A program made the position numbers and the translations under genes. Of a stretch of DNA of 64,000 nt, positions 9,197-39,286 are shown one piece after another. The notes under the pieces are model-generated. The model ran no database searches. It saw nothing but the letters and a program-made list of their open reading frames with translations, and had not been told where the DNA came from. Every line of letters starts with the position of its first letter. The stretch's first letter is position 1. The DNA is from a virus (lineage: Duplodnaviria; Heunggongvirae; Uroviricota; Caudoviricetes): positions 19,007 through 83,006 of IMG/VR virus record IMGVR_UViG_3300029571_000007. One strand, written 5' to 3'.

Positions 9197-9207
9197 AACC
9201 TTTCAAA

Positions 9208-9492: not shown

Positions 9493-9600
9493 AAAAAAAA
9501 TCTCCTTTTAATCTATAATGTTTTTGCACTTTTAATATAATAAATGCTGATTTAATAAAAGAGGGTAGTAGTCAATACGATCTACTCCCTCAAAAAAATC

Positions 9601-10656
9601 TTATTCAACCCAAAGCTGAACCTTATCAATATATCTACCAAAACAACCAGCATATCCGTCCTGTCCATTTACAGTTTGATCATCTATCTGAACAGGGTAA
9701 TATTCGTCCATACCCTGTGGCGATACCTGTATATATAGACACTTGTATTCATAACCATCAGGTGTATAGAATACTGCTTTTAATGCGTCAATAGGTGTTC
9801 TACCGTTACCTGCGTAACCATTTTCGTCATCATTAATGTCATAGCCATCAACTTCTGGAAGCCAATCGCCGTTAAGTAAGTGAACCTGATATCTTACATA
9901 ACCTTCACTAACACCAATGGCAATACCTGTAATTGCCTGATCATCACTAGCACCAGCCCAATCATCTCTATCATGAACTTCATCCCACCAACGATTATTT
10001 GACTTAGCCCTATAATAAACATCAACATGACCTAAATCATTAGTTCTACCACCTGTAGTTTCATTATTATCCGAACTATCATTGTCAGAACAATCTTCAC
10101 TTGAATCTTCTGATACTACTTCGCCTGTTAAGGCTTCGACTATAGCATTCGCACAGGCTTCAGCATCCCATCTGTTAGCATCGTCTCTATCATCCACGAA
10201 GCAACATTCAATTAAGATAGCAGGGGCTTTTGTGTTTCTAAGAACATAAAGTCCTGAATTGGTTTTAAATCCTCTGTTCCTAATATTAAGTTTTTCTGAA
10301 ATTGCCTCACAAATCTTCGAACCAATTTCTTCTGTTCCAGTGTCATATCCGTAAACTTCTGTACCACCAGTAGAATCATCGCCTTCGTAATCATCTCTAC
10401 CAGAGTTAAGATGTATAGATATATCTAAATCAACATTATGTGAATTACATTTAGCAACAATCGCTGCTAAACAACCATTCTGTGACGTGTTTTCATCACA
10501 CGTACAATCATAAACTGTATGTCCAAGTGCTTCTAACTTTGCAATTACAGCATTCTTGACGATTCTGTCTTCAACAGACTCCTGTAAAATACCAACTGCA
10601 CCATAAGCACCCTGATCCTGTGGACAGTGACCTGCATGTACATTATATGTAGCCAT
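9601..10656 (-). CDS. Endolysin: N-acetylmuramoyl-L-alanine amidase (amidase_3-like) with C-terminal wall-binding region
   Basis: N-terminal HAGHCPQDQGA...SIHLNSG...LIECCFVDD resembles amidase_3; 351 aa; lysis-module position upstream of packaging genes. Confidence 0.75.
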   Translation of the reverse strand: MATYNVHAGHCPQDQGAYGAVGILQESVEDRIVKNAVIAKLEALGHTVYDCTCDENTSQNGCLAAIVAKCNSHNVDLDISIHLNSGRDDYEGDDSTGGTEVYGYDTGTEEIGSKICEAISEKLNIRNRGFKTNSGLYVLRNTKAPAILIECCFVDDRDDANRWDAEACANAIVEALTGEVVSEDSSEDCSDNDSSDNNETTGGRTNDLGHVDVYYRAKSNNRWWDEVHDRDDWAGASDDQAITGIAIGVSEGYVRYQVHLLNGDWLPEVDGYDINDDENGYAGNGRTPIDALKAVFYTPDGYEYKCLYIQVSPQGMDEYYPVQIDDQTVNGQDGYAGCFGRYIDKVQLWVE

Positions 10657-10733
10657 TTTATATTCCTCCTATACAAAATAAATAAAAATAAAAGAGGGTA
10701 GTATAAAACTATCCTCATAAGAACAAAATATAA

Positions 10734-11969
10734 TTAACTAAGCTGAATATCTTTTATCATTTCAACTTCGTTATCTTTTAAAATTGCTATTGTTTGAGAT
10801 GCTACACTACTGCAATAAAAATTTTTGGAAAAATCATTGAATCCGCTTAAGCAGCCTGTAGATATAGCATATCTACCATGATTTTCTGACTGAATGGAAA
10901 AATTGTGGAGATGTCCACTAAAGATTAAATCATAGAACTGATTATCACTAGAAATAATTTTTGCAAGATTATATCTATCATTTTTATATTTATCACCATG
11001 AATAAATTTACAAGATAAACCACAAACAGTAATATTTATCTCAGAATCATTATAATTTGTATCTAATATAGAAATGCGTTCACAGCCACTTACATCAACC
11101 AAATCTTTAATATGTTCAGTAATAAGCACATTTGCGTTGTCGCCCTCATAATTCTTTTTCTTGTCACCTGACATACGATCATGATTTCCAGCAATACCAC
11201 CAAATACAACATTGCAATCTTCAGCTAAAGCGACTAATAATCTATATATTAGTTTAGTAGCCTTATGTATCTGCATAGATTGTAAAAATTCACAATTATG
11301 TGCTTGTGTTTCTCTCATATATGAATTCTCGATCATATCACCTGTTGATATAACCAGAACCTGACGGATATTATATAATTCAATATACTTCTTACATTCA
11401 GAAATATATTTATCTATTCTTTCATTAGCAATTTCCCAATTAAAATTATTACCATTACAATTGTTAATTATATAGCCAATATGCCAATCAGTAATATGAC
11501 ATATCATAGTGTAATCAGATTCTTCTTCAACAGAAGAGTACATATATGTAGGAATTTCCATTGAGAAATTATTATCTTTCATATATTGTTTTAATTCATC
11601 AGCAACAGTAATGCAAGGAACTAAATCTCGTTTAAGTTTATTAAGTTTCAATCTATCATTATGTATTTGCTGTTTAACAATATATTGTTCACCTAGTACT
11701 TCTTTAGCATCATCAAGAGTACTACTTTTTTCTGTTATGTTTTTAGCTTTTAAATATTCTCTAACAAAATAATTGCCAAATATGGTCTGACTAGCCTTTC
11801 TAACGCTATCATAATGACATTTTATATCATATTTATCTACAATTTCTTTCCAATCTATATCTGAAATACCAGACATTTTATTCGAAATTTCTTGTAAAAC
11901 CTGTTCATAAGTTGATGGGGTTAGCCCATATTTTTTTAATTCTTCTTCGAAATTATAAATATAGTTCAC
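10734..11969 (-). CDS. Calcineurin-like metallophosphoesterase
   Basis: Motifs ITDWHIG (DxH), TGDMIEN (GD), GNHD (GNHD/E); 411 aa. Confidence 0.6.
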   Translation of the reverse strand: MNYIYNFEEELKKYGLTPSTYEQVLQEISNKMSGISDIDWKEIVDKYDIKCHYDSVRKASQTIFGNYFVREYLKAKNITEKSSTLDDAKEVLGEQYIVKQQIHNDRLKLNKLKRDLVPCITVADELKQYMKDNNFSMEIPTYMYSSVEEESDYTMICHITDWHIGYIINNCNGNNFNWEIANERIDKYISECKKYIELYNIRQVLVISTGDMIENSYMRETQAHNCEFLQSMQIHKATKLIYRLLVALAEDCNVVFGGIAGNHDRMSGDKKKNYEGDNANVLITEHIKDLVDVSGCERISILDTNYNDSEINITVCGLSCKFIHGDKYKNDRYNLAKIISSDNQFYDLIFSGHLHNFSIQSENHGRYAISTGCLSGFNDFSKNFYCSSVASQTIAILKDNEVEMIKDIQLS

Positions 11970-11976
11970 CTACTCT

Positions 11977-12183
11977 CTATTCTTCATTAGATTCAACAGG
12001 TTCATCGAGTTCACTTTCCTCTTTTACCTTCACATTTATTTCAACACTACCACCATTAAATACTGATAGAAGAGTAGCAAGTTTCTTTTCTCCACCATCT
12101 ACTTCAACAGTCATATTATCTGTGTCAATGATACCTGCAATCTTCATTGCGGTTGTCTCGGTACGTTTATAAACAAAATTCAT
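11977..12183 (-). CDS. Hypothetical protein (68 aa)
   Basis: ORF track; 4-nt overlap with upstream gene. Confidence 0.5.
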   Translation of the reverse strand: MNFVYKRTETTAMKIAGIIDTDNMTVEVDGGEKKLATLLSVFNGGSVEINVKVKEESELDEPVESNEE

Positions 12184-13100
12184 AAATTTAGCTCCTTTTT
12201 TAATATTTCTTCTATATTTTCATAATCCCAATACCAAATTTCCAACAATTGAATATTATGTTTTTTGGCATACTTACGTTTTCGCATATCATGTTCTTGT
12301 TGGATTTGATATTTCTTTTTACTTTGTATTCTTGCTTTGCCGTCATGGAATTCACCTTGATATTCAATTAAAAGATTGTATTGAGGCAAATAAAAATCAT
12401 ATGATAATAAGCCGTTATTAACACCTAACAAATTGTCATAATTCTGTTGTGGTATATAATCTATATTGTTATTATAAAGCAATTGTCTAATTTTTTGTTC
12501 GCCTTTTGATTCATTACAAAATGGGCATCTTTGACCACGCAAAAAATTATTTGCAATCATTTTAAAAGAATTATTACATTTTTTATGTAGAAATAGAATT
12601 TTATTAGAAGATTTTGTATATTCCGACAAAACTTTGTAATCTTCTCCATACGGACAAGTATTTACTTTTTCAATAAATTCTTCAGTTGTATAATGATATG
12701 TTTTTTTACATACAGGACAACCATGCCCATGTAATATACTTGAAGCGATTGGACTCCATTTATATCCACATATTCTACAATGAACATCTATTGGATTTAA
12801 CGCACCTGTATATGTGCCATCTACTATTATATCTTCGTTATCAAATTCTCTTTTAAATTGAGCATCAGTTTTTCCTCTTGCTTGTCTTATTGCACAAGGT
12901 TTATGAATGCGTCCCATTAGTAAATATGATGGAGTGGTTTCAAAAGTTTGTCCACATATTTTACACATACATAGTATTTTATTTTTTGAACCAGTATAAG
13001 ACCCTAATATTTCCACTGGCATATTTAATTTTGAATATTCTTCAATAAATTCTTCATGTGTTTTCTTTTTAGGCATTTTGTAACATCTCCTTCGTAACAT
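12180..13100 (-). CDS. Multi-zinc-ribbon protein with C-terminal endonuclease-like (DUF559/PD-(D/E)xK-like) domain; possible homing endonuclease
   Basis: Four CxxC pairs; C-terminal YDFYLPQYNLLIEYQGEFHDG resembles restriction-endonuclease-like fold proteins. Confidence 0.4.
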   Translation of the reverse strand: MLRRRCYKMPKKKTHEEFIEEYSKLNMPVEILGSYTGSKNKILCMCKICGQTFETTPSYLLMGRIHKPCAIRQARGKTDAQFKREFDNEDIIVDGTYTGALNPIDVHCRICGYKWSPIASSILHGHGCPVCKKTYHYTTEEFIEKVNTCPYGEDYKVLSEYTKSSNKILFLHKKCNNSFKMIANNFLRGQRCPFCNESKGEQKIRQLLYNNNIDYIPQQNYDNLLGVNNGLLSYDFYLPQYNLLIEYQGEFHDGKARIQSKKKYQIQQEHDMRKRKYAKKHNIQLLEIWYWDYENIEEILKKELNL

Positions 13101-13103
13101 AAT

Positions 13104-13319
13104 TTAAAAAATTAGATATGTCTCTTTATCTATCCTCCAATTTCCTAAATTTTTATTAAGCAACTCATTTTTCTCAAATAAAAATACCAAAAATCCTTTT
13201 GACTTCTGGTCTGTATCTATTCTTTTAAGTTGTGAGCCATTGTCAATAAGGTAATTTGCTAATCGTTTGCTTTTGCATACAAACAAAATATTTTCCTCCA
13301 TAAAATTAAAAATTCCCAC
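13104..13319 (-). CDS. Hypothetical protein (71 aa)
   Basis: ORF track. Confidence 0.45.
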   Translation of the reverse strand: MGIFNFMEENILFVCKSKRLANYLIDNGSQLKRIDTDQKSKGFLVFLFEKNELLNKNLGNWRIDKETYLIF

Positions 13320-13626
13320 CAGAACGCTTTCTGCCAGGATTGTAATACATTTGTTTACTTTTATTCTGCTTTACTTTAATATACTCACGAATCTTCCTAA
13401 TATAATTTTCATCATAGCTTAATCTAGCATGTGATTCTAAATAATAACACCCACAACGAGTAGGAATTTTATTTGATAATACATTGTCTATAAGCTTATA
13501 CGATGGATTAAGATTTGAAAGATGAGTATGTTTTTCTGTGTCATCTTTTCTGCATATACGATAGCCGTTTTCAGTCTTGTCAATATAAAAATCTTTATAT
13601 TCTATTCGATTTTTCATAGCCAGCAC
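13306..13626 (-). CDS. Hypothetical protein (106 aa), Cys/His-containing
   Basis: ORF track; a further ~55-aa GTG-started ORF lies at ~13628..13795 (-). Confidence 0.5.
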   Translation of the reverse strand: MLAMKNRIEYKDFYIDKTENGYRICRKDDTEKHTHLSNLNPSYKLIDNVLSNKIPTRCGCYYLESHARLSYDENYIRKIREYIKVKQNKSKQMYYNPGRKRSGGNF

Positions 13627-13827
13627 CTACTTGACGAATTTATCTTCGATGTAACGCTTTCCACTACAAGTCTTGTAATAACCTATGTGTTCGCCTCTAC
13701 GATCTACATATCCTCGTCTTGTGTTTCTGATTACACCTTCAGATAATAATTTTTCAATTTCACTTTTAGAAATCTGTTTAATAATTTTCACATCCTTTGA
13801 TTTATTTCCTACAAAGTAGGATAGTAG

Positions 13828-13902
13828 TTGGAAATGTAGGATTTGAACCTGCGACCTCTTGATCCCAAATCAAGCGTTCTAGCCAAGCTGAACTAATTCC
13901 CA
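13828..13902 (-). tRNA. tRNA-Pro (anticodon TGG)
   Basis: Full cloverleaf: U8, D-stem GTTC/GAAC, anticodon arm CTTGA-TTTGGGA-TCAAG with U33 and G37, T-loop TTCAAAT; U1-A72 first pair. Confidence 0.75.
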
Positions 13903-14791
13903 AAATAAAAAATCCCATACCGAAGTATGAGATCCTTACTTAATATGAGCTGAGATATTTGACTCAATACACTAACATCTACTGTGGTTGGACACAGTTT
14001 ATCACACAAGCGATTAACTTGTAGTTAGCAACAACACCGATTTTGACATAATCGGCAAACTCTTACCACAAAGTATTATAGATTTTCTTTCTGCACATTC
14101 TTCCTTGCGAGATTCATAGGTTGCAGCCTATTAGAGTTGTACGTACTTGTACTTTCTCATATAGTACCTTGCGAGTGCTATATGTCACCATATTACAGAT
14201 GAATAAGTTGTTTGTCTCTTTGCGGTTATACACACTTTTGCTTGTTCTTTTCTATCAGTAAATCAAATAATATTTTTATTATTAAGGAATTCTGTTCATT
14301 CACCAAAAGTATGTACTTACAAATGGACGATGAGGTGTATATTTGACCATCAGTACCTTTTGAGTACCACCCAATCATCACCATCCTGCTCGGATTGCGA
14401 TCTCCTTGCTTTTTGATTCCATCCCTGTTTTTCAACTTAAGAGATATTATCAAAATCCTATCAACAGTTATACTTGCGGTATTCCCGTCAATAGTACACA
14501 AATCATCCCCACATTTCTGTGTTAATACAGTGCCTATTTCGAGACACCCACCAAATCAATTTGTTTAAGAATCTCATGCAATGCAATTGATTACATAAAC
14601 TCATAAATAGTCATTATCAGTTGACCTCTGACCTTAGATATGGCGTAGATTTTATGTGTTTTCCGTTAAACTGTATTATACAGTCGCAGCCTTATAATAC
14701 GATAAGAACCACTTTATACGTGTCGCCACGCTTATTTTAAGATTCAACATCCTCCGATCCGAAACCGACCAGTCCTATAAAAATAGGATAA

Positions 14792-14863
14792 CTCCCACAA
14801 CAGGATTCGAACCTGTAACTTACGAATTAACAGTTCGTTGCTCTACCATTGAACTATATGGGA
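14792..14863 (-). tRNA. tRNA-Asn (anticodon GTT)
   Basis: D-arm TAGTTCAATGGTAGAGCA, anticodon arm ACGAA-CTGTTAA-TTCGT, T-arm ACAGG-TTCGAAT-CCTGT; U1-A72. Confidence 0.8.
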
Positions 14864-14992
14864 AGAGTATCAGTGATTACACGATTTTTTAAATAATGCA
14901 ACCACCGATATAAGAAAGAGAGGTTAATTTATAAAATAAACTTTTAATATTATGTAATGCCACATAGGGCAGGATATTAAGAAAAGCTGATT

Positions 14993-15445: not shown

Positions 15446-18319
15446 TTAGCTGTCGATTTCGCATTTTGCCTGTTTTTTTGTAATTTTGAAGCCAATATCA
15501 AACAATTTAACATCAGCACCATTTTCTTCTAATTGGGAAATTTCATGTTTCGACTGGATAATAGCTTTATTGAAACTATCATTGCCACAGAGATACATAA
15601 TTTCTAATAAAAGATTTTTGATTTGAGAATTCTCTTTATCTTCAAGAGAAGAGAGCAGACGATATAATGTAGAAAATCCAATTGTTTCATCTTCAATGTC
15701 GGAAATAAGGTCTTCTCTTAATTTATTCGCTTTTTCATTTTTATCTTCTTTTGTATCTGAGTCAGAAGCGTAAATATTTTTTCTTTCATTTATATATCTT
15801 TTTAAAATACTATAAATTTTATTTATTTGTTTTTGATTTACACGATTTGTTCTAAATAAAGAGTTATCTAATATAGATACAAATGGTAGCCAATCCTTTT
15901 TATATGGATTCTTAATTTTGAATCCATTAATAATGGTCTGTAAATAGTCCATTGAAGTGTGACATTTACAATAATGTTTCTTATCAGGATTGTAATATCC
16001 TTTTTGTTTAGAGATATGAGAGAAGAAGTGTGGCATACGTTTCTTACCTCTTACTAATTCGCCTTCTTCATTCTCTTCATACTCACGCAAAAGTTCATCA
16101 TACTTTTCACGTAGTTTATCTAACTCTTTACCGTTGTTGATAATAAATTCTTTCTTTGCCTTATCAATTTCAATTCCAGACATTACATCTAATTGACATA
16201 TATCATAATATAACTCCTTAATATCATTATAAGTAGCACCATGATACATCTTATCCCAAAGTAAAGAATTTAATTCCTGAGATAGATTAACAATCTCACC
16301 GATTTTATTTACAGATGTTTTAATGTCAAGATCTGCTTGCTGTTCTGGTGTATAATATCTTTTTTTCTTTGTAGAATCAACATTCGCAGTTGGTGTTTTA
16401 AACAACTGATAATTTCTTTTAGCTGCACGAATGAGCTTTTCATTATCTGTCAACATTACTGTATCACTATCGAAGTCAGCACCCGATAACCTCTGCAATA
16501 CATTTTCTCCAATAGAATTAATACACACAATCTCATTTGTAAGATTAAGATAACAATCTATCAATTTATTCTCCGTATTATATGGAAGCCAAATGTTTCC
16601 GATTGTAACATGAGGTGAACGACTGGCAAGAAGAGTTTTATTATATTCAAAGCGTGTACTATGTATATTACCAATTCCAATTTGACTTTTTCCTTCAAAC
16701 TTACCAATTGATTGCTGTAACATCTCTATTGGATTACCAAGAAGAGTAGAGTAGTTACCATTTACATAGATATGCCCATTTTTGAGATTTTTGTAATATG
16801 ATGCCAATAAATCATGTAAAAAGTCTTGATAATATTTAGTTTTAGTAAAATTATCATTTACACACATTAAATTATAAACCACATCATTCTTGCTACTCAT
16901 AGGTTTATCCATAGGTGACATTTCATCAATATCAGGATATTTAATGTAATAACGTACAACTTCTGGTCTATCTCTAAGCATTTGTGCAAAGTCAAGCGAT
17001 TCCTGCAAAAATTCTCTTACTTCATCTTTGGACATCTGAAGGGTATTGAGCAACTGATAATGAGTCTGTACTAAGCGACCTCCAAAGAAATGAGTTTTCT
17101 TATCATGCTTTACAACACCAAAATCAGGATATAAGTGGTTAAGCCATTCATCCCATGTACTAAATTTCAAATATTTAATACTGTTAGGTGTGGTAATTAA
17201 CTTTACATCTTCAATTCGTGTAGCTCTTGTTTTACCATTAAGCTGAGACACATCCGTTATATTATTATCTTTGAACCATTGTTGGATATTACAGTTGAAA
17301 CAACAAGATTTGAACATTAGATTTCTAAGTAGAAGCATACCATATTCTGAATAATCACCAAATAGAGATATATCCATAAGAGACTGACCATCCCAAATTG
17401 TATTTGTAATTTCACAATTCTTTTCAGTAGTTTTAAGCCATCCGTCTTCATCATGAGTCTCGATTACGTCCTCATTAAACACGCTGTCATAATCATCAAT
17501 TAAAAGAATATTTTCTGGTTTAATTGGAATGGTATCAATAATGCTACTAGATGGGAGAGCAATATATCCCTCATATGCAGCTAAATCAATCGGATCTCCT
17601 TGGTTATATTTAAGACCACCTGAACTGAATTTTATAATCGGTTCATATAAATCTTCTCTGATAAAAAGACATTTACCAACTCTTGCAGAGCCAGTAGAAC
17701 GTTTCATACGACAATATTTAATACCATTACATATAAATCCATCTTTATACAACTCAGTTCTAAGTTCTGCATTTGTCTTTATAGTCTTCGGTTCACCTTT
17801 TTTATGGTATTGAGTTTGAATCTCTTTAATAACAGTTTTATCCTTTTTATCATAGATATTTACCTGCTTTTTAACAAATGGCTTTGGTATATCAGTTGGG
17901 TTTTCAATTTTTTCATTCGTCTTAATTCCAACAATTTCACCTTCGCTATTTTTAGCAATACCATCTTTAAAAGACAGATTTCTATAATCATATCCAAGCC
18001 TGACAAAAGTATTTTTGTTCATCTGATTCCATTCTTTTACAGAATACTTAAACGTGAGATTAATTACATTTACAGAATAATCATGTTTTTTAATTCTAAA
18101 TGAAAAATCATGTTTTCTGAATTTTCTATAATAAATATCCTTTAACTCTATAAGGTCTAAGCTATAATCAAGTGTATTGATAAATTTTCGTAAATTATAC
18201 TGTCCATCTTTGAGCTTTAAATTATATCCTTCTGGATTTTCCTCAATGTAATGTGCTGATAAATAAATATCTTTTGCATCAATAGAGGGAATATATATAT
18301 TATTGTTTGTCATCAGCAT
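15446..18319 (-). CDS. Large protein (957 aa) with RNAP-type metal-binding motif GADFDSD; candidate YonO-like non-canonical single-subunit RNA polymerase
   Basis: Unambiguous long ORF; motif LSGADFDSDTVML (residue ~615, nt ~16463-16477) matches the NADFDGD aspartate triad of beta-prime DPBB domains; no polB/polA motifs seen. Confidence 0.35.
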   Translation of the reverse strand: MLMTNNNIYIPSIDAKDIYLSAHYIEENPEGYNLKLKDGQYNLRKFINTLDYSLDLIELKDIYYRKFRKHDFSFRIKKHDYSVNVINLTFKYSVKEWNQMNKNTFVRLGYDYRNLSFKDGIAKNSEGEIVGIKTNEKIENPTDIPKPFVKKQVNIYDKKDKTVIKEIQTQYHKKGEPKTIKTNAELRTELYKDGFICNGIKYCRMKRSTGSARVGKCLFIREDLYEPIIKFSSGGLKYNQGDPIDLAAYEGYIALPSSSIIDTIPIKPENILLIDDYDSVFNEDVIETHDEDGWLKTTEKNCEITNTIWDGQSLMDISLFGDYSEYGMLLLRNLMFKSCCFNCNIQQWFKDNNITDVSQLNGKTRATRIEDVKLITTPNSIKYLKFSTWDEWLNHLYPDFGVVKHDKKTHFFGGRLVQTHYQLLNTLQMSKDEVREFLQESLDFAQMLRDRPEVVRYYIKYPDIDEMSPMDKPMSSKNDVVYNLMCVNDNFTKTKYYQDFLHDLLASYYKNLKNGHIYVNGNYSTLLGNPIEMLQQSIGKFEGKSQIGIGNIHSTRFEYNKTLLASRSPHVTIGNIWLPYNTENKLIDCYLNLTNEIVCINSIGENVLQRLSGADFDSDTVMLTDNEKLIRAAKRNYQLFKTPTANVDSTKKKRYYTPEQQADLDIKTSVNKIGEIVNLSQELNSLLWDKMYHGATYNDIKELYYDICQLDVMSGIEIDKAKKEFIINNGKELDKLREKYDELLREYEENEEGELVRGKKRMPHFFSHISKQKGYYNPDKKHYCKCHTSMDYLQTIINGFKIKNPYKKDWLPFVSILDNSLFRTNRVNQKQINKIYSILKRYINERKNIYASDSDTKEDKNEKANKLREDLISDIEDETIGFSTLYRLLSSLEDKENSQIKNLLLEIMYLCGNDSFNKAIIQSKHEISQLEENGADVKLFDIGFKITKKQAKCEIDS

Positions 18320-21954: not shown

Positions 21955-22734
21955 TTACATATTAATATTCTCTAAAAGTTCTATCTGTTTTTTAATTTCC
22001 TCACATGGATCATATTTATTATCAATTCTTTGACCATGTTCATCAGTTATAAAATGTCTGTAATCAGCAAACACCTTTGGAGTAGTAGTATATTTTTCTT
22101 TGCCATCCTTAATATGTTTTTCTCTCTTCATAGGTTGACATTTTACAATTTTAAGTTCTTCCAAAATGTCAACTATACGACCAATATATCTTTCAGAAAG
22201 TCCAATGTCTTCTGAAATAGTCTTAAAATATCTATAACAGCATAATGGCTTACCATCCATTCGATTCAAATTAACACGAATATAAGAGAGTACAAGTAAA
22301 ATATAAGCTGATGATATTCTTGCAGTATCAATCTCTTTATCCTTCAATTCTTCTTTGAAATTTAATATTACATCCAACTCATCAAAATAAATAATTCCAA
22401 ATTTATCAGGTACATCAAATTTTTCTATATTAAGTTTTACTTGCTGATATTTGACCGAATTGGTCTTTTCTTTTAGACTTTTCTCAAAATCTGGACATGA
22501 TTCAAAGTATCCATAATGAGAGAGAAGTGATAGAACTTCATAATATTTCTGATTTATCTTTCCATCTCTGTAGTTAGGTTTCAATTTAGACCAGTGGCAA
22601 AGTTCTGTTGTGGAAAATGCCACTGTGTCATCAAGTGACCGCCTTGCACAAAGATATGAGAAGATTATCACACGTTTAGACGAGAGATCTTTATCATAAA
22701 TGATTTCTCGTGGAATTTTTACATAGTTTGGCAA
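21955..22734 (-). CDS. Hypothetical DNA-binding/replication-associated protein (259 aa)
   Basis: ORF track; follows the ParB-like genes in the same leftward operon; no diagnostic motif recognised. Confidence 0.5.
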   Translation of the reverse strand: MPNYVKIPREIIYDKDLSSKRVIIFSYLCARRSLDDTVAFSTTELCHWSKLKPNYRDGKINQKYYEVLSLLSHYGYFESCPDFEKSLKEKTNSVKYQQVKLNIEKFDVPDKFGIIYFDELDVILNFKEELKDKEIDTARISSAYILLVLSYIRVNLNRMDGKPLCCYRYFKTISEDIGLSERYIGRIVDILEELKIVKCQPMKREKHIKDGKEKYTTTPKVFADYRHFITDEHGQRIDNKYDPCEEIKKQIELLENINM

Positions 22735-22753: not shown

Positions 22754-23563
22754 CTAATCTTCAAGTTTACTCATTTTTAATCGTTTTGTTTTTGGAACTT
22801 TATAGTTATATTTAGATACAAAAATCTTTGCGTATTTTGTAGATGTTTTATCCGTATATGTATCACTATCTGCTTCTTTCTTAATTGAAAGTGGATCTGA
22901 GATAGATAACACATTTAATAAACGTTTTTTATCAAATTCCTTATTATATGTTTCATAAAAATCAAACATTCCTCTAATAAAACTCCACTGTAAAGATATT
23001 GGATTTCCACTAAAAGCAGTTTTATGAATATCCATACACTCAATAAATTTCTCTTTTTTATTTGTAGATACATATTCTTTATACAAGTTTAATAGTGAAG
23101 CAGTACAATTAATCTTATAATCGCTTCCTGATTCTTCTCCAAAAATATTTAATTTAAATCCAAGAGATTTTAAACAATTATAAAAATCTTGCTCATCTTT
23201 ATTCTTTTTATATGTACCTCTGATTTGAGCCGTTAAAATTCTTTTACTACTCTGTGGTTGTCTTTTTGTATTTTCTTGAGCAAACCAATCATTTTCTTCC
23301 TGTTCAGTTAAGCCATAACGCAATTCACATCTAATAGATTTCCATCCAACACGTCTTACGATACCTACTGTATGCTGACCATCACCCATTTTTCTAGTAC
23401 CATCATTTCTCACACTAATTTTTGGACACTCAACGGCATCTTTATCAAATACTCCTGGTTTACTGTTTTCTTCAATAAATGCATGATTTAGTGGTCTTTG
23501 GTAATCTGTCATTGACTCTAATTCATCAAGTGGAATGTTTTTATACTCTTTTTTAATTAACAT
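22754..23563 (-). CDS. ParB/DUF262-like nuclease-domain protein (GDGQHT motif)
   Basis: VRNDGTRKMGDGQHTVGIVRR resembles the DGQHR/DGQQR signature of the ParB-Srx/DUF262 fold. Confidence 0.35.
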   Translation of the reverse strand: MLIKKEYKNIPLDELESMTDYQRPLNHAFIEENSKPGVFDKDAVECPKISVRNDGTRKMGDGQHTVGIVRRVGWKSIRCELRYGLTEQEENDWFAQENTKRQPQSSKRILTAQIRGTYKKNKDEQDFYNCLKSLGFKLNIFGEESGSDYKINCTASLLNLYKEYVSTNKKEKFIECMDIHKTAFSGNPISLQWSFIRGMFDFYETYNKEFDKKRLLNVLSISDPLSIKKEADSDTYTDKTSTKYAKIFVSKYNYKVPKTKRLKMSKLED

Positions 23564-23566
23564 ACT

Positions 23567-24529
23567 TTAATCCTCCATTTTTAATTTTGTATTTTTTGCT
23601 AATTCAATAGCTGTTAATAGTTTCGTTATATTATTCTCTGCATTTGCAATACATTCATCTAATTCTGATTTGTTGACTCTATTTTCCATATCTTTAAGAA
23701 TACTAACAAATCCATCATAATACATTTGGAAATCAGCATTCATACATTCAATAATAGAAATTCTATAGTCCCAAATAGAATCAAGATATTCTTTTGACTT
23801 TTCAGTTTTAAGGTCTTCGCATATTTGTTTGACTTCATCACTGACTTGATTTTTTTGAGAATTTTGAATAGTAGGAGATGATGTAGTTAGTTGATCAATA
23901 TTATATTCTCTAGTTTGATTATCAGATGATTGTGTTTTTTTCTTTTCATTTTGTAATGCTCTATATCCAGCATTTATGCTTTTTTCGCCTGATAAAACTT
24001 CTTTTTTTAATTCCTCGTTATCAGATTCAAGAATTTTCTTACCTTTCGAATATGTATCAGTAGAAACGCCTGCTGTGTTGGCTAATTTTTTTGTTGTATT
24101 AATTGGAATAATAGGGTTTTCAGATTTCTGAAAAGGCTTTTTATTTTTACCAACGCCATAATTATTCCCAGCCTTTGCAAGATTTTCTTTCGCCTGTTTT
24201 TCATAAATAGGTCTATACTTCTCAGTTACAGCAATTCTTTGTATGGGAGACAGATTACGTCTTCCTAGCTGAATATCTAGCATCCATTGCATAACTTCTT
24301 CTTTTGTTTCATAAGCAAGCGTTCCAACTACGTATTCAATATTATGTTTCTGACACACAGAGTAACGATTATGACCATCTACAATATAACCATGCCATTC
24401 CATAATAGGAAAATTCTTGTCAAATCCATTTTCTACAATATTTTTTTCAAGTCGTTTGTACTCATCATCAGTAAGTGGTGGTAATAAATCCCTTAATTCA
24501 GGATCAATCTTTAGTTCTTTTTGTTCCAT
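23567..24529 (-). CDS. ParB-like nuclease/partition-domain protein
   Basis: PIMEWHGYIVDGHNRYSVC (ParB DGHHR-type box), LGRRNLSPIQRIA; 320 aa; first gene of leftward operon. Confidence 0.5.
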   Translation of the reverse strand: MEQKELKIDPELRDLLPPLTDDEYKRLEKNIVENGFDKNFPIMEWHGYIVDGHNRYSVCQKHNIEYVVGTLAYETKEEVMQWMLDIQLGRRNLSPIQRIAVTEKYRPIYEKQAKENLAKAGNNYGVGKNKKPFQKSENPIIPINTTKKLANTAGVSTDTYSKGKKILESDNEELKKEVLSGEKSINAGYRALQNEKKKTQSSDNQTREYNIDQLTTSSPTIQNSQKNQVSDEVKQICEDLKTEKSKEYLDSIWDYRISIIECMNADFQMYYDGFVSILKDMENRVNKSELDECIANAENNITKLLTAIELAKNTKLKMED

Positions 24530-25480: not shown

Positions 25481-26898
25481 AGATTACTCCTTTGATATAT
25501 TATTCTCTCTTCAATTGTCTACCTAGAGATGTTCTTTTCCTGCTAACGCTGCGAAAAGACCGCCCTTATCAAAGGGCTACATCTTGTGCTTACGCACATA
25601 CTATATCTTTTTTGAGCTTGTATATAGTTTTCTCATACCCCTATCTGTGGGTTTAAAATGAGTTTTTGAGAGTAATTTTCAATTTTTATGTCTTAAGTGA
25701 TAACTTATAAGGGTATGAGATAAAAGTGGCTAATTTTTCTGTGAGGTGTGATTTTCTCCCTAAATAGATTAAGATGCAATTTTATCCGCTAATAAATTTA
25801 TTAATTTTTGTTTGATGAGAGTGGTGTGATGATTATTCACAATAGATTATTCTCTTATATGAATTTAAAATTATGAATTTTTAGTATTGTATGAATATGT
25901 TAATTAACAAAGAGAGTTAATGTAAAATTCTTTACATTGGATATAAGGCGAAAAATTAATGATTTAGAGTCTATTTTGGATTTTTATATGTCAGGTGGTT
26001 AGTTGTTAGGGTAGAGGATAAAAATTGAAATTTGAGCTGTGAGAGTGGATTTTTGTATAGGCGTGAGAATTGACAATATTATTTATAGTAAATGTATGTG
26101 AATGTATATAGATAGTTAATGTAATTTTGGGTGATGTAAAAAATTGACCTTGTATTTTGAGCATTTGGGTGGGAAAAAATGATTTTAGGTGTTATTGGTA
26201 GGGTAAAATGAAAACGCTGTGTATTGGCGAGATGGAGGGTTTAGATGAGAAATGAGATTCTTTAGTATTGTTATAGTGGGATTTTTTGATGGTTTGTATT
26301 ATATTTTTGGTTGTTTTTGTGATGCATATAGGCGATTTTTTGGGTTTTCTGGTGTGGTTTTTATGCACCCCCTTGTATTGTAGATGAGAGAGTTGTGATT
26401 TGTGTGATTAATTATTAATGATAGATTTTGGATTAAAAATGATTATCGGTAAAAGTACTTATAAATAAGGAAGATTTTGGATTTGTGAATGAATTTTTGA
26501 TAAGATGGAAGTTTAATTTTTGGGTTGTAAAGTGAATGAAAGTGGCTTGATTAGTGGGTTTGAGCGATATGGGGTACGATATGGGGTTGGGATGGGAAGA
26601 ATTGGGATTTTGCTTGATTTTAGTGGAGATTTTGAATATTGGGGAAGGGTTAGATTTTTGAGTTGGTGTGTAGAATAACCAGCTAAGTGGATGCTGCCAA
26701 AATGCGACTATCATTTTGGTTTTAAATACCCCCAACATATAAAAACAATGGCTAATAGATATATATTAACCATTATTTTTACTGATACTTTTGAGCAGAT
26801 TCGATGTAGTTTTTAAAACTATGTCATATGGTTTGATTTGCTATATGATATCATTTTGATATCGTTTAAAAAAGATTTAAAATATTATAAATAATCTA

Positions 26899-26927
26899 TT
26901 GACAATGACAATAAATAGTGATAACAT
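26899..26927 (+). promoter_or_regulatory. Promoter P1 with embedded imperfect palindrome
   Basis: TTGACA (26899-26904), 17-nt spacer atgacaataaatagtga, TG-extended -10 TAACAT. Confidence 0.55.
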
Positions 26928-26978
26928 ACGATACAACAACAGATAAACAATTTGATTTAAAAAAATTCAAATAATCTG

Positions 26979-27007
26979 TTGACAATCACAATTAATTGTG
27001 ATAAGAT
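26979..27007 (+). promoter_or_regulatory. Promoter P2 with perfect 16-bp palindrome TCACAATTAATTGTGA in spacer
   Basis: TTGACA, 17-nt spacer, TG-extended -10 TAAGAT; palindrome 26986-27001. Confidence 0.6.
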
Positions 27008-27076
27008 ATAGCCAAGTTAAGAAAGTACTGTAAAACGAACCTTCCTCGTAAGGTCGGGAAAACTTAACACAACATA

Positions 27077-27105
27077 TTGACAAACACAATACATTGTGAT
27101 ATACT
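27077..27105 (+). promoter_or_regulatory. Promoter P3 with CACAATACATTGTG palindrome in spacer
   Basis: TTGACA, 17-nt spacer, TG-extended -10 TATACT. Confidence 0.6.
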
Positions 27106-27987
27106 ACAATCACAATAAAACAACAGCTTGACAAGGAATAAGTCATTAAAACCAGAATAGGAGGTGCCATATTTGAAAAGTGAATAATATTCCAAAAGGG
27201 TACAGTGTACCCAATGGGTATTATGGCTATATTTCAGCCACAAAAAGTTATATGCTTTTTGCGACTGAACAAGAATATCTTGAATATATAGCCGACTAAT
27301 TACAAGTAATTGTGTAAATAGTCCCTGAACAAGTCTATTTTATCACGATTCAGTGTATTAGTAAATCCCCATAGGAAAAAACAATTTTATATTTCTTATA
27401 TAGGCACTGTATTTATTCCCTGGAATAGATACAAAAGACTATAGTAGGATATAAGATTCTAAGGTTGTATCTCAATGAGTTTAACCTTATACAAATTGAA
27501 TAATAGGTTTTATGGGTTTACTCTAAAATCCTATGAGGACGGCTCAAATTGTACTTTGAAATAGGTGCATAAGCCCGAAGATTAACAATCTTCGCATCAT
27601 ATTAAAGTGGTGTGCCTTTACCCTGCCAATAATGGGAGGAAGATGTCAGAAAAGACATAAGGCTCAAGTGCGAACCCTTCAGCTTATATTCCAGGGTGTG
27701 AGTGTTTACAAGGTAGTAGTTGACGGTCAATAAAAAATCTTAACCGATTAAATCACGGTTAAAGTTGTGAAGTCGATAACCAAGCTGATAGCAACTAAAA
27801 TATAAAAGGTTAATGATAGATATAACATAGTTTGCAGGGTAAAACCTACAAGCATTTATTTATTAGCAGGGTAATGCCTACAATAAGTATACTTATGGAG
27901 TATCTATCCTCTTAACTGGATTTAATGTTAATATGCTCATTACGCTAGTAGGTGAGGCGTTCCCTACAAAGTTTTATACATAGTTAG

Positions 27988-28024
27988 AAGGGTGGACTAT
28001 ACACAATTAGTCTACCCTTTTATA
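27988..28024 (+). terminator. Rho-independent terminator
   Basis: 10-bp stem GGGTGGACTA/TAGTCTACCC, 8-nt loop, followed by TTTTAT; closes the ORF-free transcribed stretch before gene 28106. Confidence 0.75.
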
Positions 28025-28105
28025 GTGTGCATAACACTACAATTATAAATACAATAAAAATATTATATTGCACCGATTGCGTTAAGTCGGGGAAAGAGGT
28101 ATATT

Positions 28106-39077: not shown

Positions 39078-39286
39078 TCAAAGGAAATTGTAATTTACTT
39101 AGAAAGAGTGTGATTGAAATGGAATTTAGATTGACAAGTGAAAGTATGGAGTTGCTAATTGAATCTATTGTAGATGCAGTTGAAAATACAGAAGATAGAG
39201 ATATGCAATTTGAAATGGTAAAGACAATTCTTGAAGATAATGGAATTATAGAAATCAAAGACTGAGAAAGGTAAAAGGTAAATATT

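What the first reader, a model, noticed from the sequence alone, without database searches (positions are those of the whole stretch)
25620..26700. ~1.1-kb cytosine-depleted, G-tract-rich island at the strand-switch point
Between the outermost leftward gene (25480) and the rightward promoters, the plus strand drops to roughly 2-5% C per 60-nt line while G stays above 25%. Expected C for this genome is about 15%.

The region has no credible ORF; the only listed one, 26433..26738(-), is a low-complexity artefact. It is studded with G-runs such as GGGGTACGATATGGGGTTGGGATGGG at 26573-26598, and GGGTGGG, GGTAGGG and GGGGAAGGG elsewhere, which are G-quadruplex-capable.

Such extreme strand asymmetry localised to 1 kb suggests a specialised element. 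Candidates are a replication origin or strand-biased initiation zone, a transcribed G-less/C-less RNA, or a G4-structured regulatory DNA between divergent early and late gene blocks.
Basis: seen in the sequence. Interest (0 to 1): 0.6.

Follow-up and report, generated by a model that had tools for sequence, protein, structure and literature searches.

The report
One-strand C-poor spacer beside phage packaging hub
The C-poor kilobase is real: it is a non-coding spacer whose base composition, not its sequence, is conserved, it sits where related SPbeta-type phages start DNA packaging and switch gene direction, and relatives use it as a landing pad for defence genes; its mechanism is still inferred.

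Summary
Window 25640-26690 has 5.1% C on the plus strand (G 25%, T 40%). It is the lowest-C kilobase of the 64 kb and the only long non-coding stretch with GC skew above 0.6.

The G-quadruplex and origin readings do not hold. G-runs are no commoner than the composition predicts, the single G4 motif is lost in relatives, and there is no DnaA-box cluster or iteron array.

The phage is an SPbeta-like temperate phage of gut Clostridia, with a YonO-type RNA polymerase and a terminase 46% identical to SPbeta's. The island lies at its divergent gene switch. In Bacillus SPbeta-like phages the experimentally mapped packaging start lies in that same intergenic region. There it is flanked by the two most skewed stretches of the genome, with the same polarity: C-rich and G-poor on the strand read away from the centre.

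Unrelated island sequences in relatives share one composition (A .40, C .25, G .05, T .30). Neutral sites have about 8% C, so the composition is selected.

Read leftward from a consensus promoter at its right edge, the RNA is nearly structure-free, lacks usable start codons and is C>G. My best but inferred reading is a Rho-type terminator or insulator spacer. A DNA-level role in packaging is the main rival.

Relatives carry defence-gene cassettes inserted into the island.

The parts
25790..26700 (-). Core compositional island ('late-arm flank'). On the leftward (minus) strand it is A .40, C .26, G .045, T .30. It is non-coding and unstructured as leftward RNA.
   Evidence: Composition and skew. 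No codon periodicity. RNA MFE is -2.8 kcal per 100 nt against -14.9 +/- 3.7 for leftward mRNAs. Fold z-scores are -0.29 (minus sense) and +0.61 (plus sense). It is 87-92% identical in relatives whose flanking gene block is 83-84% identical. Non-homologous islands share the same composition.
25620..25789 (-). It belongs to a conserved block and contains the 17-nt-arm hairpin 25628-25644 / 25707-25723.
   Evidence: C is 4-8 per 60 nt here. Inverted repeat I3. The block 25485-25745 is 91-95% identical in 13 distinct relatives.
25485..25745 (-). Conserved leader block between the island and the first leftward gene (start 25480). It has several hairpins, including a terminator-like hairpin at 25577-25562 (GCCCTTTGATAAGGGC followed by GGTCTTTTCG).
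   Evidence: Terminator-like hit on the minus strand; the same hit in L011. Conservation. Sequence.
26700..26892 (.). Central conserved block at the island's right edge. It contains the palindrome TAGTTTTTAAAACTA (26807-26821) and GATATC-N5-GATATC (26847-26863), and has more self-structure than the island. It is the positional analogue of the ~250-bp SPbeta pac block, with no sequence similarity to it.
   Evidence: The block aligns in L018, L023, L026 and L034, and homology breaks at 26,824-26,939 in different relatives. ssDNA MFE is -9.1 and -10.5 per 100 nt, against -3.0 and -2.2 for the island. SPbeta pac block.
26884..26911 (-). Leftward sigma-A-type promoter P_L (TTGTCA, 16-nt spacer, TATAAT). 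It sits back-to-back with the first rightward promoter and reads into the central block and the island.
   Evidence: 11 of 12 consensus matches. A promoter-like -35/-10 pair sits at the same position relative to the conserved block in relatives with a different upstream sequence. This is a consensus match only; transcription was not shown.
26874..27106 (+). Three tandem rightward promoters, each with a palindromic operator (CACAAT..ATTGTG) between -35 and -10. They form the neighbouring right half of the switch and are not part of the island.
   Evidence: Direct-repeat family D1. Promoter hits at 26899-26927, 26979-27007 and 27077-27105, all with TG-extended -10 elements.
26583..26606 (+). The only canonical G-quadruplex motif (GGGGTTGGGATGGGAAGAATTGGG). 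It is not conserved.
   Evidence: Regex and G4Hunter (maximum 1.88 against shuffles 1.34 +/- 0.22). The G-tracts are broken in the L011, L016, L018 and L034 lineages.

Best explanation
What it is (well supported). The island is the late-arm flank of the divergent switch and packaging-start region of an SPbeta-like temperate phage of gut Clostridia. It is non-coding DNA in which selection keeps a strand-specific composition rather than a sequence. On the strand read away from the centre of the switch it is C-rich (about 25%), G-poor (about 5%) and A>T. Relatives have inserted defence-type gene cassettes into it, so this window carries the 'empty' version.

How it most likely works (inferred). 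The leftward promoter P_L (-10 at 26884-26889) transcribes the central block and then the island. The resulting RNA cannot fold, has almost no start codons and no ribosome-binding sites, and is strongly C>G. Those are the descriptors of Rho-utilisation (rut) RNA in Firmicutes. On this reading the island is a long Rho-loading, terminating spacer. It would let the switch promoters fire without reading into the leftward operon, which leads on to the YonO-type polymerase and the late genes. It would also give a benign, transcribed, recombination-tolerant site for cassettes.

Shown: the composition, its conservation, the synteny, the cassette insertions and the RNA properties.
Inferred: leftward transcription in this phage, and any dependence on Rho.
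For: Composition is selected, not mutational.
- Four-fold sites of this phage's genes are A .45, T .42, C .08, G .06. Non-coding segments next to the inserted cassette genes (in relatives) have C .03-.18 and G .08-.16. The island has 25% C and 5% G on the leftward strand and 30% G+C.
- Sequence-unrelated islands (window, L035 right, L035 left, L022, L027b) all have A .38-.46, C .19-.26, G .05-.07, T .25-.38.
- L035 and L036 keep the composition at 72% identity.
- Substitutions are mostly pyrimidine exchanges on the leftward strand: 93 A/G columns against 25 C/T columns on the plus strand. Against L034 the counts are 45 and 13 inside the island, but 17 and 20 in the neighbouring non-coding kilobase.

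Polarity follows the outward direction.
- The window has a single arm.
- L035 and L036 have two opposed arms around a centre.
- MT835469.1 has arms at 171.5-172.7 kb and 173.2-174.2 kb.
- Bacillus phage Goe12 has arms with skew +0.58 and -0.78. They contain the most extreme 200-nt skew windows in the 90 kb scanned (peaks +0.71 and -0.77), and they flank the mapped pac block (preprint 10.1101/2021.11.22.469490).

RNA properties.
- Leftward RNA MFE is -2.8 kcal per 100 nt, against -14.9 +/- 3.7 for mRNAs of the same strand.
- 28 of the 40 highest C/(G+1) 78-nt windows of the whole minus strand lie in the island.
- UC and CC dinucleotides are favoured over AC (1.19 and 1.05 against 0.79).
- There are only 9 ATG/GTG/TTG in 911 nt, against 55 in a coding control, and none has an SD-like motif upstream.
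- B. subtilis Rut sites are described as pyrimidine-rich, G-poor, unstructured, C>G, and enriched in prophages (PMC12350095).

Transcription direction.
- P_L matches the consensus at 11 of 12 positions and is positionally conserved.
- All five inserted cassettes are in the leftward orientation.
- In SPbeta the 183-nt transcript ncr1052/ncr44 lies on the yonP strand. By my coordinate mapping it starts in the pac block and ends 30-105 nt into the C-rich arm, where no hairpin terminator is possible (PMC2965217).
- A terminator-like or pause hairpin closes the island at 25577-25562.
Against: - Rut sites are about 50-100 nt long; this island is about 900 nt, and that length is unexplained.
- The same paper states that these descriptors cannot reliably identify Rut sites.
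- No transcript data exist for this phage, and P_L is only a consensus match.
- In Goe12 and TR-TP1 the arms lie upstream of the strong outward gene promoters. They would be transcribed only from weaker promoters inside the centre. What the family shares is position relative to the centre, not position relative to a known promoter.
- The inserted cassettes end in strong intrinsic terminators. Island pieces downstream of them would rarely be transcribed from P_L, yet they keep their composition.
- The island is missing in some close relatives (L021, L031), so it is dispensable.
- T-tracts show helical phasing (10.6 bp, p about 0.003), which points to a DNA-level property.
- The ncr1052 read count was very low (2), and my mapping carries about +/-40 nt of uncertainty.
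Confidence: 0.35

Rival explanations
1. DNA-level packaging element. The island is a flank of the pac site or genome opening point, and the terminase or DNA-end machinery acts on it. It might be a wrapping or loading arm for the small terminase subunit, a polar guide for a strand-tracking translocase, or the first kilobase packaged, which lies in the terminal redundancy and must anneal or recombine quickly after injection.
For: - In SPbeta-like phages the opening point was mapped between yonP and yonR, with packaging running towards yonP.
- In Goe12 the mapped ~250-bp block is exactly the segment between the two skewed arms.
- The BUCT082 and BUCT083 records start at the two edges of that block.
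- The window phage is syntenic: it has a YonO-type RNAP and a related terminase, and the island lies on the YonO/terminase side, as the stronger SPbeta arm does.
- The arms are arranged with dyad symmetry about a more structured centre.
- T-tracts are phased at 10.6-11.2 bp in three arms (p <= 0.003), and CAAAAT/AAAATC-type A-tract motifs are enriched.
- As single-stranded DNA, both strands of the arms fold weakly (-2 to -3 against -6.2 +/- 2.4).
- From my own memory: the SPP1 and P1 pac sites also have binding arms on both sides of the cut.
Against: - What is conserved is single-strand composition, not a repeated motif, which is unusual for a duplex-binding protein.
- Arm length varies from about 215 to 1200 bp. 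One arm is absent in the window and weak in SPBc2.
- Arms tolerate 0.6-1.5-kb cassette insertions at four or more positions, and are absent in L021 and L031.
- No phage end was mapped in this lineage. Contig ends were uninformative because the long contigs are prophage-form.
- The ssDNA structure deficit is only about 1.4 sd.
Confidence: 0.25
2. Recombination landing pad only. The island is a tolerated spacer whose conserved pieces serve as homologous flanks for exchanging moron or defence cassettes between related prophages. It has no transcriptional or packaging role of its own.
For: - Cassettes made of an SD, a gene and an intrinsic terminator (DUF3825, RelA_SpoT/PDC-S33, and 255-aa and 146-aa proteins) sit at four or more different points.
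- They are flanked by island pieces that are collinear with the window's uninterrupted island.
- The island pieces are more conserved (87-92%) than the neighbouring gene block (83-84%).
- The island is dispensable in some relatives.
Against: - This does not explain why the composition is strand-specific, above neutral G+C, and identical in unrelated sequences and in Bacillus phages.
- It does not explain why the polarity follows the outward direction.
Confidence: 0.12
3. Replication origin or R-loop zone. Rightward transcription would give G-rich RNA that forms a stable R-loop or D-loop and primes replication, or the island marks a strand-biased initiation zone.
For: - The island is at the cumulative GC-skew minimum.
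- The plus strand is G+T-rich, as expected for a displaced or leading strand.
- A gene with a weak, sub-threshold HTH_36 match (E 0.0019, bits below Pfam's cut-off) and ParB-like genes lie 1-3.5 kb to the left.
- The replication origin of SPbeta-like phages was not located in anything I read.
Against: - No DnaA-box cluster: 1 box in the island and 25 in 64 kb. No iterons or long repeats.
- No convincing rightward promoter at the left edge.
- The two-arm polarity in L035, Goe12 and MT835469 is the reverse of the skew expected around a bidirectional origin.
- The skew minimum is explained by the switch in gene orientation.
- G+C above the neutral level argues against a deamination footprint of persistent single-strandedness.
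Confidence: 0.07
4. G-quadruplex regulatory DNA or RNA formed by the plus-strand G-tracts.
For: One canonical motif at 26583-26606. The G4Hunter maximum is 1.88, about 2.5 sd above shuffles.
Against: - G-runs are not enriched over composition (z = 1.1; GGGG is below expectation).
- The motif is broken in most relatives.
- Other arms with the same composition were not found to share G-tract motifs.
Confidence: 0.03
5. Mutational by-product. Strand-biased deamination or repair in a heavily transcribed or single-stranded region produced the skew, and it has no function.
For: The plus strand is C-poor and T-rich, the direction expected from C-to-T deamination of an exposed strand. Purine transitions dominate.
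Against: - Deamination lowers G+C, but the island's 30% G+C is far above the neutral ~14% at four-fold sites. It is also above most non-coding segments next to the inserted cassette genes, which have G+C .13-.26.
- The boundaries are sharp: 200-nt windows jump from -0.78 to about 0 at cassette edges.
- Four-fold sites of adjacent and inserted genes show no such skew.
- Composition is held at 28% divergence.
Confidence: 0.05

Closest known systems
SPbeta-type genome opening point / pac region between yonP and yonR (Kohm et al., preprint 10.1101/2021.11.22.469490; Fink & Zahler 1982 as cited there)
   Same: - Same genomic position: the divergent intergenic region on the YonO/terminase side of an SPbeta-like phage.
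- In Goe12 and SPBc2 the mapped ~250-bp block is bordered by a G-rich(+)/C-poor arm of the same style and polarity as the window's island.
- Homology between relatives breaks close to the block in both systems.
   Different: - No sequence similarity.
- The Bacillus arms are 215-350 bp; here the arm is about 900 bp and single.
- The preprint passages I read do not mention the skewed arms.
- No terminus has been mapped in the Clostridia lineage.
Rho-utilisation (rut) regions / Rho-dependent terminators, as mapped in Bacillus subtilis (PMC12350095)
   Same: Pyrimidine-rich, G-poor, C>G, unstructured and untranslated RNA. Rut peaks are reported to be enriched in prophages. The island's leftward RNA meets every one of these descriptors, and to an extreme degree.
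   Different: Known Rut peaks are about 50-100 nt, and most lie antisense to genes. This would be a 0.9-kb sense-oriented spacer. Rho dependence is untested, and the descriptors are admitted to be non-diagnostic.
pac sites with protein-binding arms on both sides of the cut (SPP1 pacL/pacC/pacR; P1 pac with hexamer arrays). Recalled from memory, not checked here.
   Same: A central cleavage region flanked by two arms. Bent, A-tract-containing DNA in the arms (for phasing here).
   Different: Those arms are defined by repeated sequence motifs within about 100-270 bp. Here the conserved property is strand composition over 0.2-1.2 kb, and no strong repeated motif was found.
Accessory or defence-gene hotspots of phages (moron insertion sites; P2/P4-type hotspots; T4 hyperplastic regions with PeSL linkers). 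Recalled from memory.
   Same: Variable cargo between conserved flanks. The cargo units consist of an SD, a gene and a terminator, all in one orientation. They include a PADLOC defence candidate (PDC-S33, RelA_SpoT) and DUF3825.
   Different: The flanks here are a compositionally constrained non-coding spacer rather than conserved genes or promoter-stem-loop linkers.
Polar G-rich guide sequences for DNA translocases (KOPS GGGNAGGG for FtsK; SRS GAGAAGGG for SpoIIIE). An analogy only, recalled from memory.
   Same: The G-rich strand points 5'->3' towards a specific site from both sides. GGGAAGGG occurs in the window's GGGGAAGGG run at about 26,641-26,649, and GAGAAGGG occurs in the Goe12 arm.
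   Different: These are single occurrences. No enriched G-rich octamer was found across arms. Terminases are not known to read such signals.

Membership tests
Rho-dependent terminator / rut region | C>G, G-poor, pyrimidine-rich RNA segment | tested here: met
   The leftward strand has C .26, G .045 and Y .555. 28 of the top 40 C/(G+1) windows of the minus strand lie here. Descriptors are taken from PMC12350095.
Rho-dependent terminator / rut region | Little RNA secondary structure | tested here: met
   -2.8 kcal per 100 nt against -14.9 +/- 3.7. Whole-island MFE is -47.6 kcal for 911 nt.
Rho-dependent terminator / rut region | Untranslated RNA | tested here: met
   9 start codons in 911 nt, none preceded by an SD-like motif. 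No codon periodicity in substitutions.
Rho-dependent terminator / rut region | Transcribed in the C-rich sense | tested here: inconclusive
   An 11/12 consensus promoter reads into it. The SPbeta analogue has the reported transcript ncr1052 on that strand. There are no RNA data for this phage.
Rho-dependent terminator / rut region | Typical length about 50-100 nt | tested here: not met
   The island is about 900 nt; Rut peaks average about 100 nt.
Rho-dependent terminator / rut region | Termination depends on Rho | not testable with these tools
   Needs a rho mutant or inhibitor together with 3'-end mapping.
SPbeta-type pac / genome-opening region | Lies in the divergent intergenic region next to the yonP-yonO arm of an SPbeta-like phage | tested here: met
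   YonO-type RNAP: phrog_8308, E 2.7e-94 for the window protein and E 0 for Goe12 YonO. terL is 45.6% identical. The island is at the divergent switch on the YonO/terminase side.
SPbeta-type pac / genome-opening region | Virion DNA ends or packaging start map there | not testable with these tools
   Only prophage-form or metagenome contigs were available. The MT835469.1 record end lies 2 kb away from its centre.
SPbeta-type pac / genome-opening region | ~250-bp conserved block with inverted repeats at the opening point | tested here: inconclusive
   A conserved ~190-bp block (26700-26892) with palindromes and higher self-structure exists. It has no sequence similarity to the SPbeta block.
SPbeta-type pac / genome-opening region | Block flanked by strongly skewed arms, C-rich on the outward strand (a feature I observed, not one stated in the literature) | tested here: met
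   Goe12 arms +0.58 and -0.78. SPBc2. L035/L036. MT835469.1. The window has one arm.
G-quadruplex element | Four or more G3+ tracts with short loops, conserved and enriched over composition | tested here: not met
   One motif only. G-runs are at expectation. The motif is broken in relatives.
Replication origin (DnaA- or iteron-type) | Clustered DnaA boxes or iterons next to an AT-rich unwinding element | tested here: not met
   One DnaA-like box in the island, none clustered. No repeat family longer than chance apart from the promoter repeats.
Structured non-coding RNA (Rfam family or novel) | Covariance-model match, or folding energy beyond composition | tested here: not met
   No Rfam hit at gathering score or at E<=5, other than noise. 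Fold z-scores are -0.29 and +0.61.
Protein-coding gene (including low-complexity ORFs) | Codon periodicity, and an ORF conserved in relatives | tested here: not met
   Variable columns fall 53/53/53. The 101-aa ORF is absent in L011. A 1-nt indel in L034 lies inside it.

The most novel reading that the evidence does not exclude
SPbeta-like (YonO-encoding) phages, from Bacillus to gut Clostridia, may share an undescribed element made of strand composition rather than sequence. It consists of arms of 0.2-1.2 kb, C-rich and G-poor on the outward strand, on one or both sides of the packaging-start and early-switch hub. Something that handles single strands would read these arms. One possibility is 'sterile' outward transcription that Rho terminates and that the hub needs to function, for example to keep the late RNA-polymerase operon silent in lysogens or to open the pac site or origin. 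Another is the packaging or end-processing machinery itself. The same arms would act as the family's preferred insertion site for defence genes.
Probability: 0.2. Interest if true: 0.7.

Novelty: new variant of a known kind. Interest (0 to 1): 0.5.

Why it matters
- Selection on the base composition of one strand, kept across unrelated sequences and across phages of Bacillus and Clostridia, is uncommon in non-coding DNA. It points to a process that reads single-stranded RNA or DNA rather than a motif.
- The island flanks the only mapped packaging start of the SPbeta family. SPbeta can be manipulated genetically in B. subtilis, and a rho deletion strain exists there. The question 'what do the arms do?' can therefore be tested directly in a model system.
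- If the arms are Rho-type insulators, they would show how a large temperate phage keeps its own late RNA polymerase silent.
- If the arms are packaging elements, they would add a composition-based component to pac-site recognition.
- In either case the island marks a defence-gene hotspot in abundant human-gut prophages. That is useful for finding new defence or anti-defence genes.

Tried and rejected
- **DNA similarity.** No match for the region in the INPHARED phages or in PLSDB plasmids.
- **Rfam.** No family for the island, at gathering score or at E<=5.
- **Coding.** No codon periodicity and the ORFs are not conserved. The long minus-strand ORFs arise because TAA is the only stop codon possible without G.
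- **G4.** Rejected.
- **DnaA boxes and iterons.** None found.
- **Structured RNA.** Fold z-scores are near 0 in both senses.
- **SD-like or CsrA-type GGA motifs on the plus strand.** Slightly depleted, not enriched.
- **Motif discovery across unrelated arms.** Only A-tract-type hexamers (CAAAAT, AAAATC) come out about 2-fold enriched. No long shared motif and no KOPS/SRS-like octamer.
- **Mutational (deamination) origin.** Rejected on G+C and four-fold-site composition.
- **Contig ends as a proxy for phage termini.** Uninformative. The ~155-kb IMG/VR contigs carry the island 55-65 kb from an end, in prophage form, and the larger contigs of 200-590 kb that carry the phage probably include host chromosome. 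A motif scan gave 14 loci with no clustering of ends.
- **Covariation in the conserved leader 25485-25745.** Too little variation, at 91-95% identity.
- **Rut-site supplement of PMC12350095 and the delta-rho paper.** No usable entry for the yonP-yonR region. Rasmussen 2009 does not mention ncr44 in the text held.
- **A sigma-A promoter for the 123-aa gene inside 25485-25900.** No convincing match found by eye or by scan.
Full report
**1. The observation**

The core 25640-26690 has 54 C in 1051 nt. The plus strand of the window has 13.8% C overall, 10.8% in the rightward arm and 18.5% in the leftward arm. Binomial p is 4e-20 and 6e-11 against the first two of these.

- The lowest-C 900-nt window of the 64 kb is here (4.6%); the next lowest elsewhere is 7.1%, in coding sequence.
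- It is the only stretch of 900 nt or more with GC skew >=0.6 (25791-26760).
- It holds five of the eight C-free runs of 60 nt or more.
- Other non-coding gaps have skews of -0.26 to +0.35. Two short A-rich gaps are exceptions, but they have the polarity of coding sequence.

G is above 25% only on average. The left 170 nt is weakly skewed and belongs to another block. The gene-free gap is really 25481-28105.

**2. What it is not**

- *Not coding.* Among 14 distinct homologues, the 159 variable columns fall 53/53/53 over the three phases. The 101-aa ORF is not kept in L011, and L034 has a 1-nt indel inside it. Long minus-strand ORFs are expected because TAA is the only stop codon without G.
- *Not a known RNA family*. 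It also folds no better than shuffles in either sense: z = -0.29 and +0.61.
- *Not G-tract-enriched.* GGG occurs 20 times against 16.9 +/- 2.9, and GGGG 3 times against 4.3. The one canonical G4 motif (26583-26606) is broken in most relatives.
- *No DnaA-box cluster, iterons or long repeats*.

**3. The host element**

The window encodes a portal, a large terminase, eight tRNAs, a skipping-rope RNA, integrases, ParB-like proteins and methyltransferases.

- Its terminase is 45.6% identical to those of Bacillus SPbeta-like phages.
- Its 957-aa ORF (15446-18319, minus strand) belongs to the same PHROG as the SPbeta RNA polymerase YonO. The E-value is 2.7e-94 for the window protein and 0 for Goe12 YonO.
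- The element is common in human-gut assemblies. It sits inside 200-590-kb contigs, and in ~155-kb IMG/VR contigs at 55-65 kb from one end, as an SPbeta-type prophage would.
- Metagenome-assembled genomes carrying relatives are labelled Clostridia or Lachnospiraceae.

So this is an SPbeta-like temperate phage of gut Clostridia. The island sits at the switch between the leftward arm (replication and partition genes, then YonO, then late genes) and the rightward early arm.

**4. Composition, not sequence, is conserved**

Homologous islands in relatives are 87-92% identical, whereas the adjacent block dominated by the 123-aa gene is 83-84% identical.

Several relatives carry islands that do not align with the window's or with each other, yet have the same composition on the outward strand. 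The window has A .40, C .26, G .05, T .30. L035 right, L035 left, L022 and L027b are similar. L035 and L036 are only 72% identical in one arm and still keep the composition.

Four-fold degenerate sites of the phage's genes are A .45, T .42, C .08, G .06. Non-coding segments next to the inserted cassette genes in relatives have C .03-.18 and G .08-.16. The island's 30% G+C, carried almost wholly by one base per strand, is therefore well above the neutral level at four-fold sites. The stronger departure is the excess of G on the plus strand (C on the minus strand), not only the lack of C.

Substitutions are mostly pyrimidine exchanges on the minus strand. There are 93 A/G columns against 25 C/T columns on the plus strand. 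Against L034 the counts are 45 and 13 inside the island, but 17 and 20 in the next non-coding kilobase. This is the pattern expected if C density is held by selection while individual sites turn over.

Deamination of an exposed strand would lower G+C and cannot give this result. Four-fold sites of neighbouring and inserted genes show no such skew.

**5. A landing pad**

In relatives the island is interrupted, at four or more different points, by cassettes made of a strong Shine-Dalgarno site, one gene and a strong intrinsic terminator. All are in the leftward orientation.

- DUF3825 proteins, between window positions 25883 and 25920.
- RelA_SpoT proteins that match the PADLOC defence candidate PDC-S33 at E about 1e-120, replacing 26306-26521 or 26059-26417.
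- A 255-aa protein, at 26391/26407.
- A 146-aa protein, at 25754/25794.

The island pieces between cassettes are collinear with the window's uninterrupted island. The window therefore carries the empty form of an accessory-gene hotspot. Some relatives (L021, L031) lack the island altogether.

**6. The SPbeta connection**

Kohm et al. (preprint 10.1101/2021.11.22.469490) report that the genome opening point and packaging start of SPbeta-like phages lies between yonP and yonR. They describe a precise ~250-bp block, with packaging running towards yonP, and their supplement gives the block sequences.

In phage Goe12 that block is record positions 54,728-54,979.

- Immediately to its left is a 349-nt stretch with C .07 and G .27 (skew +0.58).
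- Immediately to its right is a 216-nt stretch with C .30 and G .04 (skew -0.78).
- These two stretches contain the most extreme 200-nt skew windows in the 90 kb of the genome I scanned (peaks +0.71 and -0.77; mean .06, sd .19).
- The BUCT082 and BUCT083 records start exactly at the two edges of the block.
- In SPBc2 the left arm, on the yonP/YonO side, is strong and the right arm is weak.

The same layout of arm, structured centre and opposed arm occurs in L035 and L036 and in MT835469.1, whose YonO is 80% identical to the window's. Thomasclavelia phage TR-TP1 has a weaker C>G stretch upstream of its YonO-side promoter.

In every case the strand read away from the centre is C-rich and G-poor. 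The window has only the arm on the YonO/terminase side. At its right edge is a conserved ~190-bp block (26700-26892) with palindromes and more self-structure. Homology between relatives breaks just beyond that block.

I did not see the skewed arms mentioned in the passages of the preprint that I read.

**7. Mechanism**

A property of single-strand composition is most naturally read by something that handles single strands: RNA, resected or unwound DNA, or a strand-tracking motor.

*For the RNA reading:*
- A promoter matching the consensus at 11 of 12 positions (TTGTCA, 16 nt, TATAAT; 26911-26884, minus strand) points into the block and the island. A promoter-like pair holds the same position in relatives with different upstream DNA.
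- The leftward RNA is nearly structure-free: -2.8 kcal per 100 nt, against -14.9 +/- 3.7 for mRNAs of that strand. The plus-sense RNA is ordinary at -13.6.
- It has 9 start codons in 911 nt, and none has a ribosome-binding motif upstream.
- 28 of the 40 most C>G windows of the whole minus strand lie in it, and UC and CC dinucleotides are favoured over AC.
- These are the descriptors reported for Rho-utilisation sites in B. subtilis: pyrimidine-rich, G-poor, unstructured, C>G and enriched in prophages. The authors stress that the descriptors are not diagnostic (PMC12350095).
- In SPbeta lysogens a 183-nt transcript, ncr1052/ncr44, was reported on the yonP strand between yonR and yonP (PMC2965217). 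I anchored chromosome coordinates to the SPBc2 record with three other intergenic sRNAs. By that mapping it starts inside the pac block and ends 30-105 nt into the C-rich arm, where no hairpin terminator can form.
- A terminator-like hairpin closes the window's island at 25577-25562.

My best reading is therefore a long Rho-type terminating or insulating spacer. It would let the switch promoters fire without reading into the operon that leads to the YonO polymerase and the late genes. It would also tolerate cassette insertion.

*Against the RNA reading:*
- The length is 900 nt, against about 100 nt for known Rut sites.
- There are no RNA data for this phage.
- In Goe12 and TR-TP1 the arms lie upstream of the strong outward promoters.
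- Island pieces downstream of cassette terminators still keep their composition.
- T-tracts show helical phasing and A-tract motifs are enriched.

*The main rival* is a DNA-level role next to the pac site: terminase loading or wrapping, polar guidance, or rapid annealing of the first-packaged, terminally redundant DNA. Its support is the mapped SPbeta pac block lying exactly between the arms, the dyad symmetry, the A-tract phasing, and the weak self-structure of both DNA strands (-2 to -3 against -6.2 +/- 2.4). It is weakened by the absence of any shared motif, by the variable length, by the tolerance to insertions, and by the loss of one or both arms in some phages.

Confidence is about 0.35 for the RNA/Rho reading and about 0.25 for the DNA-level reading. 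The descriptive identification, as a compositional arm of the SPbeta-type switch hub and an insertion hotspot, I hold at about 0.8.

**8. Novelty and verdict**

The pac location in SPbeta and the general properties of rut sites are known. The following were, as far as I could find, not described:
- the strongly skewed, composition-conserved arms around the SPbeta-family switch and packaging hub;
- their presence in gut Clostridia phages;
- their use as a defence-gene landing pad.

I class the finding as a new variant of a known kind, with moderate interest (0.5). It is real, selected, conserved across genera and directly testable in SPbeta. Its mechanism remains an inference.

Noticed in passing
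window 27300-28100 (+): About 800 nt of non-coding sequence downstream of the three tandem promoters folds far better than shuffles (MFE -215 against -172.9 +/- 8.1 kcal/mol, z = -5.2) and has no Rfam match. It may be a large structured RNA or leader of the early rightward arm. It is conserved at 92-97% in L001-L005 and L034.
   Followed up: partly
window 26874-27106 (+): Three tandem sigma-A-type promoters (TTGACA, 17 nt, TAACAT / TAAGAT / TATACT, all with TG-extended -10). Each carries a palindromic operator (CACAAT..ATTGTG) in its spacer, as a 55-nt repeat spaced 80 and 98 nt apart. This looks like a repressor-controlled early promoter array.
   Followed up: partly
window 27180-27299 (+): A 39-aa ORF (MNNIPKGYSVPNGYYGYISATKSYMLFATEQEYLEYIAD) lies just after an AGGAGG. 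It is not called in the metagenome annotations and may be the first early gene. A 4-codon mini-ORF (TTG at 27173) sits at the better spacing from the AGGAGG.
   Followed up: no
window 15446-18319 (-): A 957-aa protein of the YonO family (single-chain, two-barrel-type phage RNA polymerase; phrog_8308). It is only about 22% identical to Bacillus YonO in pairwise BLAST but gives a full-length profile match. Relatives occur in Enterocloster and Thomasclavelia phages.
   Followed up: partly
window 7114-7192 (-), and 5109-14864 (-): A skipping-rope RNA (RF02924, 67 bits) and eight tRNA genes (Trp, Ser x2, Glu, Met, Tyr, Pro, Asn) are scattered through the leftward arm.
   Followed up: no
window 25485-25745 (-): A highly conserved (91-95%) leader block lies upstream of the first leftward gene. 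It contains a long hairpin (25628-25644 / 25707-25723), a UGUGC-GUAA-GCACA hairpin and a terminator-like hairpin (25577-25562). It could be a regulatory leader or attenuator. There is too little variation to test covariation.
   Followed up: partly
L026:3728-4900, L024:4793-5911, L011:5458-6432, L022:5583-6647, L038:4651-5676: Cargo genes inserted in the island of relatives. The RelA_SpoT-domain proteins match the PADLOC candidate defence protein PDC-S33 (E about 1e-120). The DUF3825 proteins (E about 1e-63 to 1e-66) have no entry in the literature library searched.
   Followed up: partly
L058 (Goe12, MT601273.1) 341-2030, i.e. record 49,340-51,029: A 1.7-kb gene-free gap lies between yonK and yonN in SPbeta-like phages. 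It has 42% G+C and no skew. Forrest et al. place the YonO-dependent late transcription start, together with an unannotated non-coding RNA, upstream of yonK.
   Followed up: no
window 39078-39286 and 50008-50223 (+): Two ~210-nt gaps without ORFs of 55 aa or more have strong G>C skew (+0.59 and +0.70), but are A-rich, like the coding strand. They may hold small genes or purine-rich leaders.
   Followed up: no
window 25790-26700; L035:3800-4780; L036:3800-4820: T-tracts (A-tracts on the other strand) recur with a 10.6-11.2-bp period (p <= 0.003 against mononucleotide shuffles). This suggests intrinsically curved DNA in three arms. It was not significant in L035 right or L022.
   Followed up: partly
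L023:5124-6769: Two ORFs (227 and 321 aa) that I took by eye to be IS-type transposase genes (not checked against any family library) are inserted between the DUF3825 cassette and the 123-aa-type gene in one relative. This is another sign that the region tolerates insertions.
   Followed up: no
window 21955-22734 (-), 22754-23563 (-), 23567-24529 (-): The first leftward operon encodes a ParB-like nuclease-domain protein, a DUF6551 protein, and a 259-aa protein with a weak HTH_36 match. The N-terminus of the last resembles plasmid or phage replication-initiator proteins, but that resemblance is from memory only. It may be a replication and partition module.
   Followed up: no
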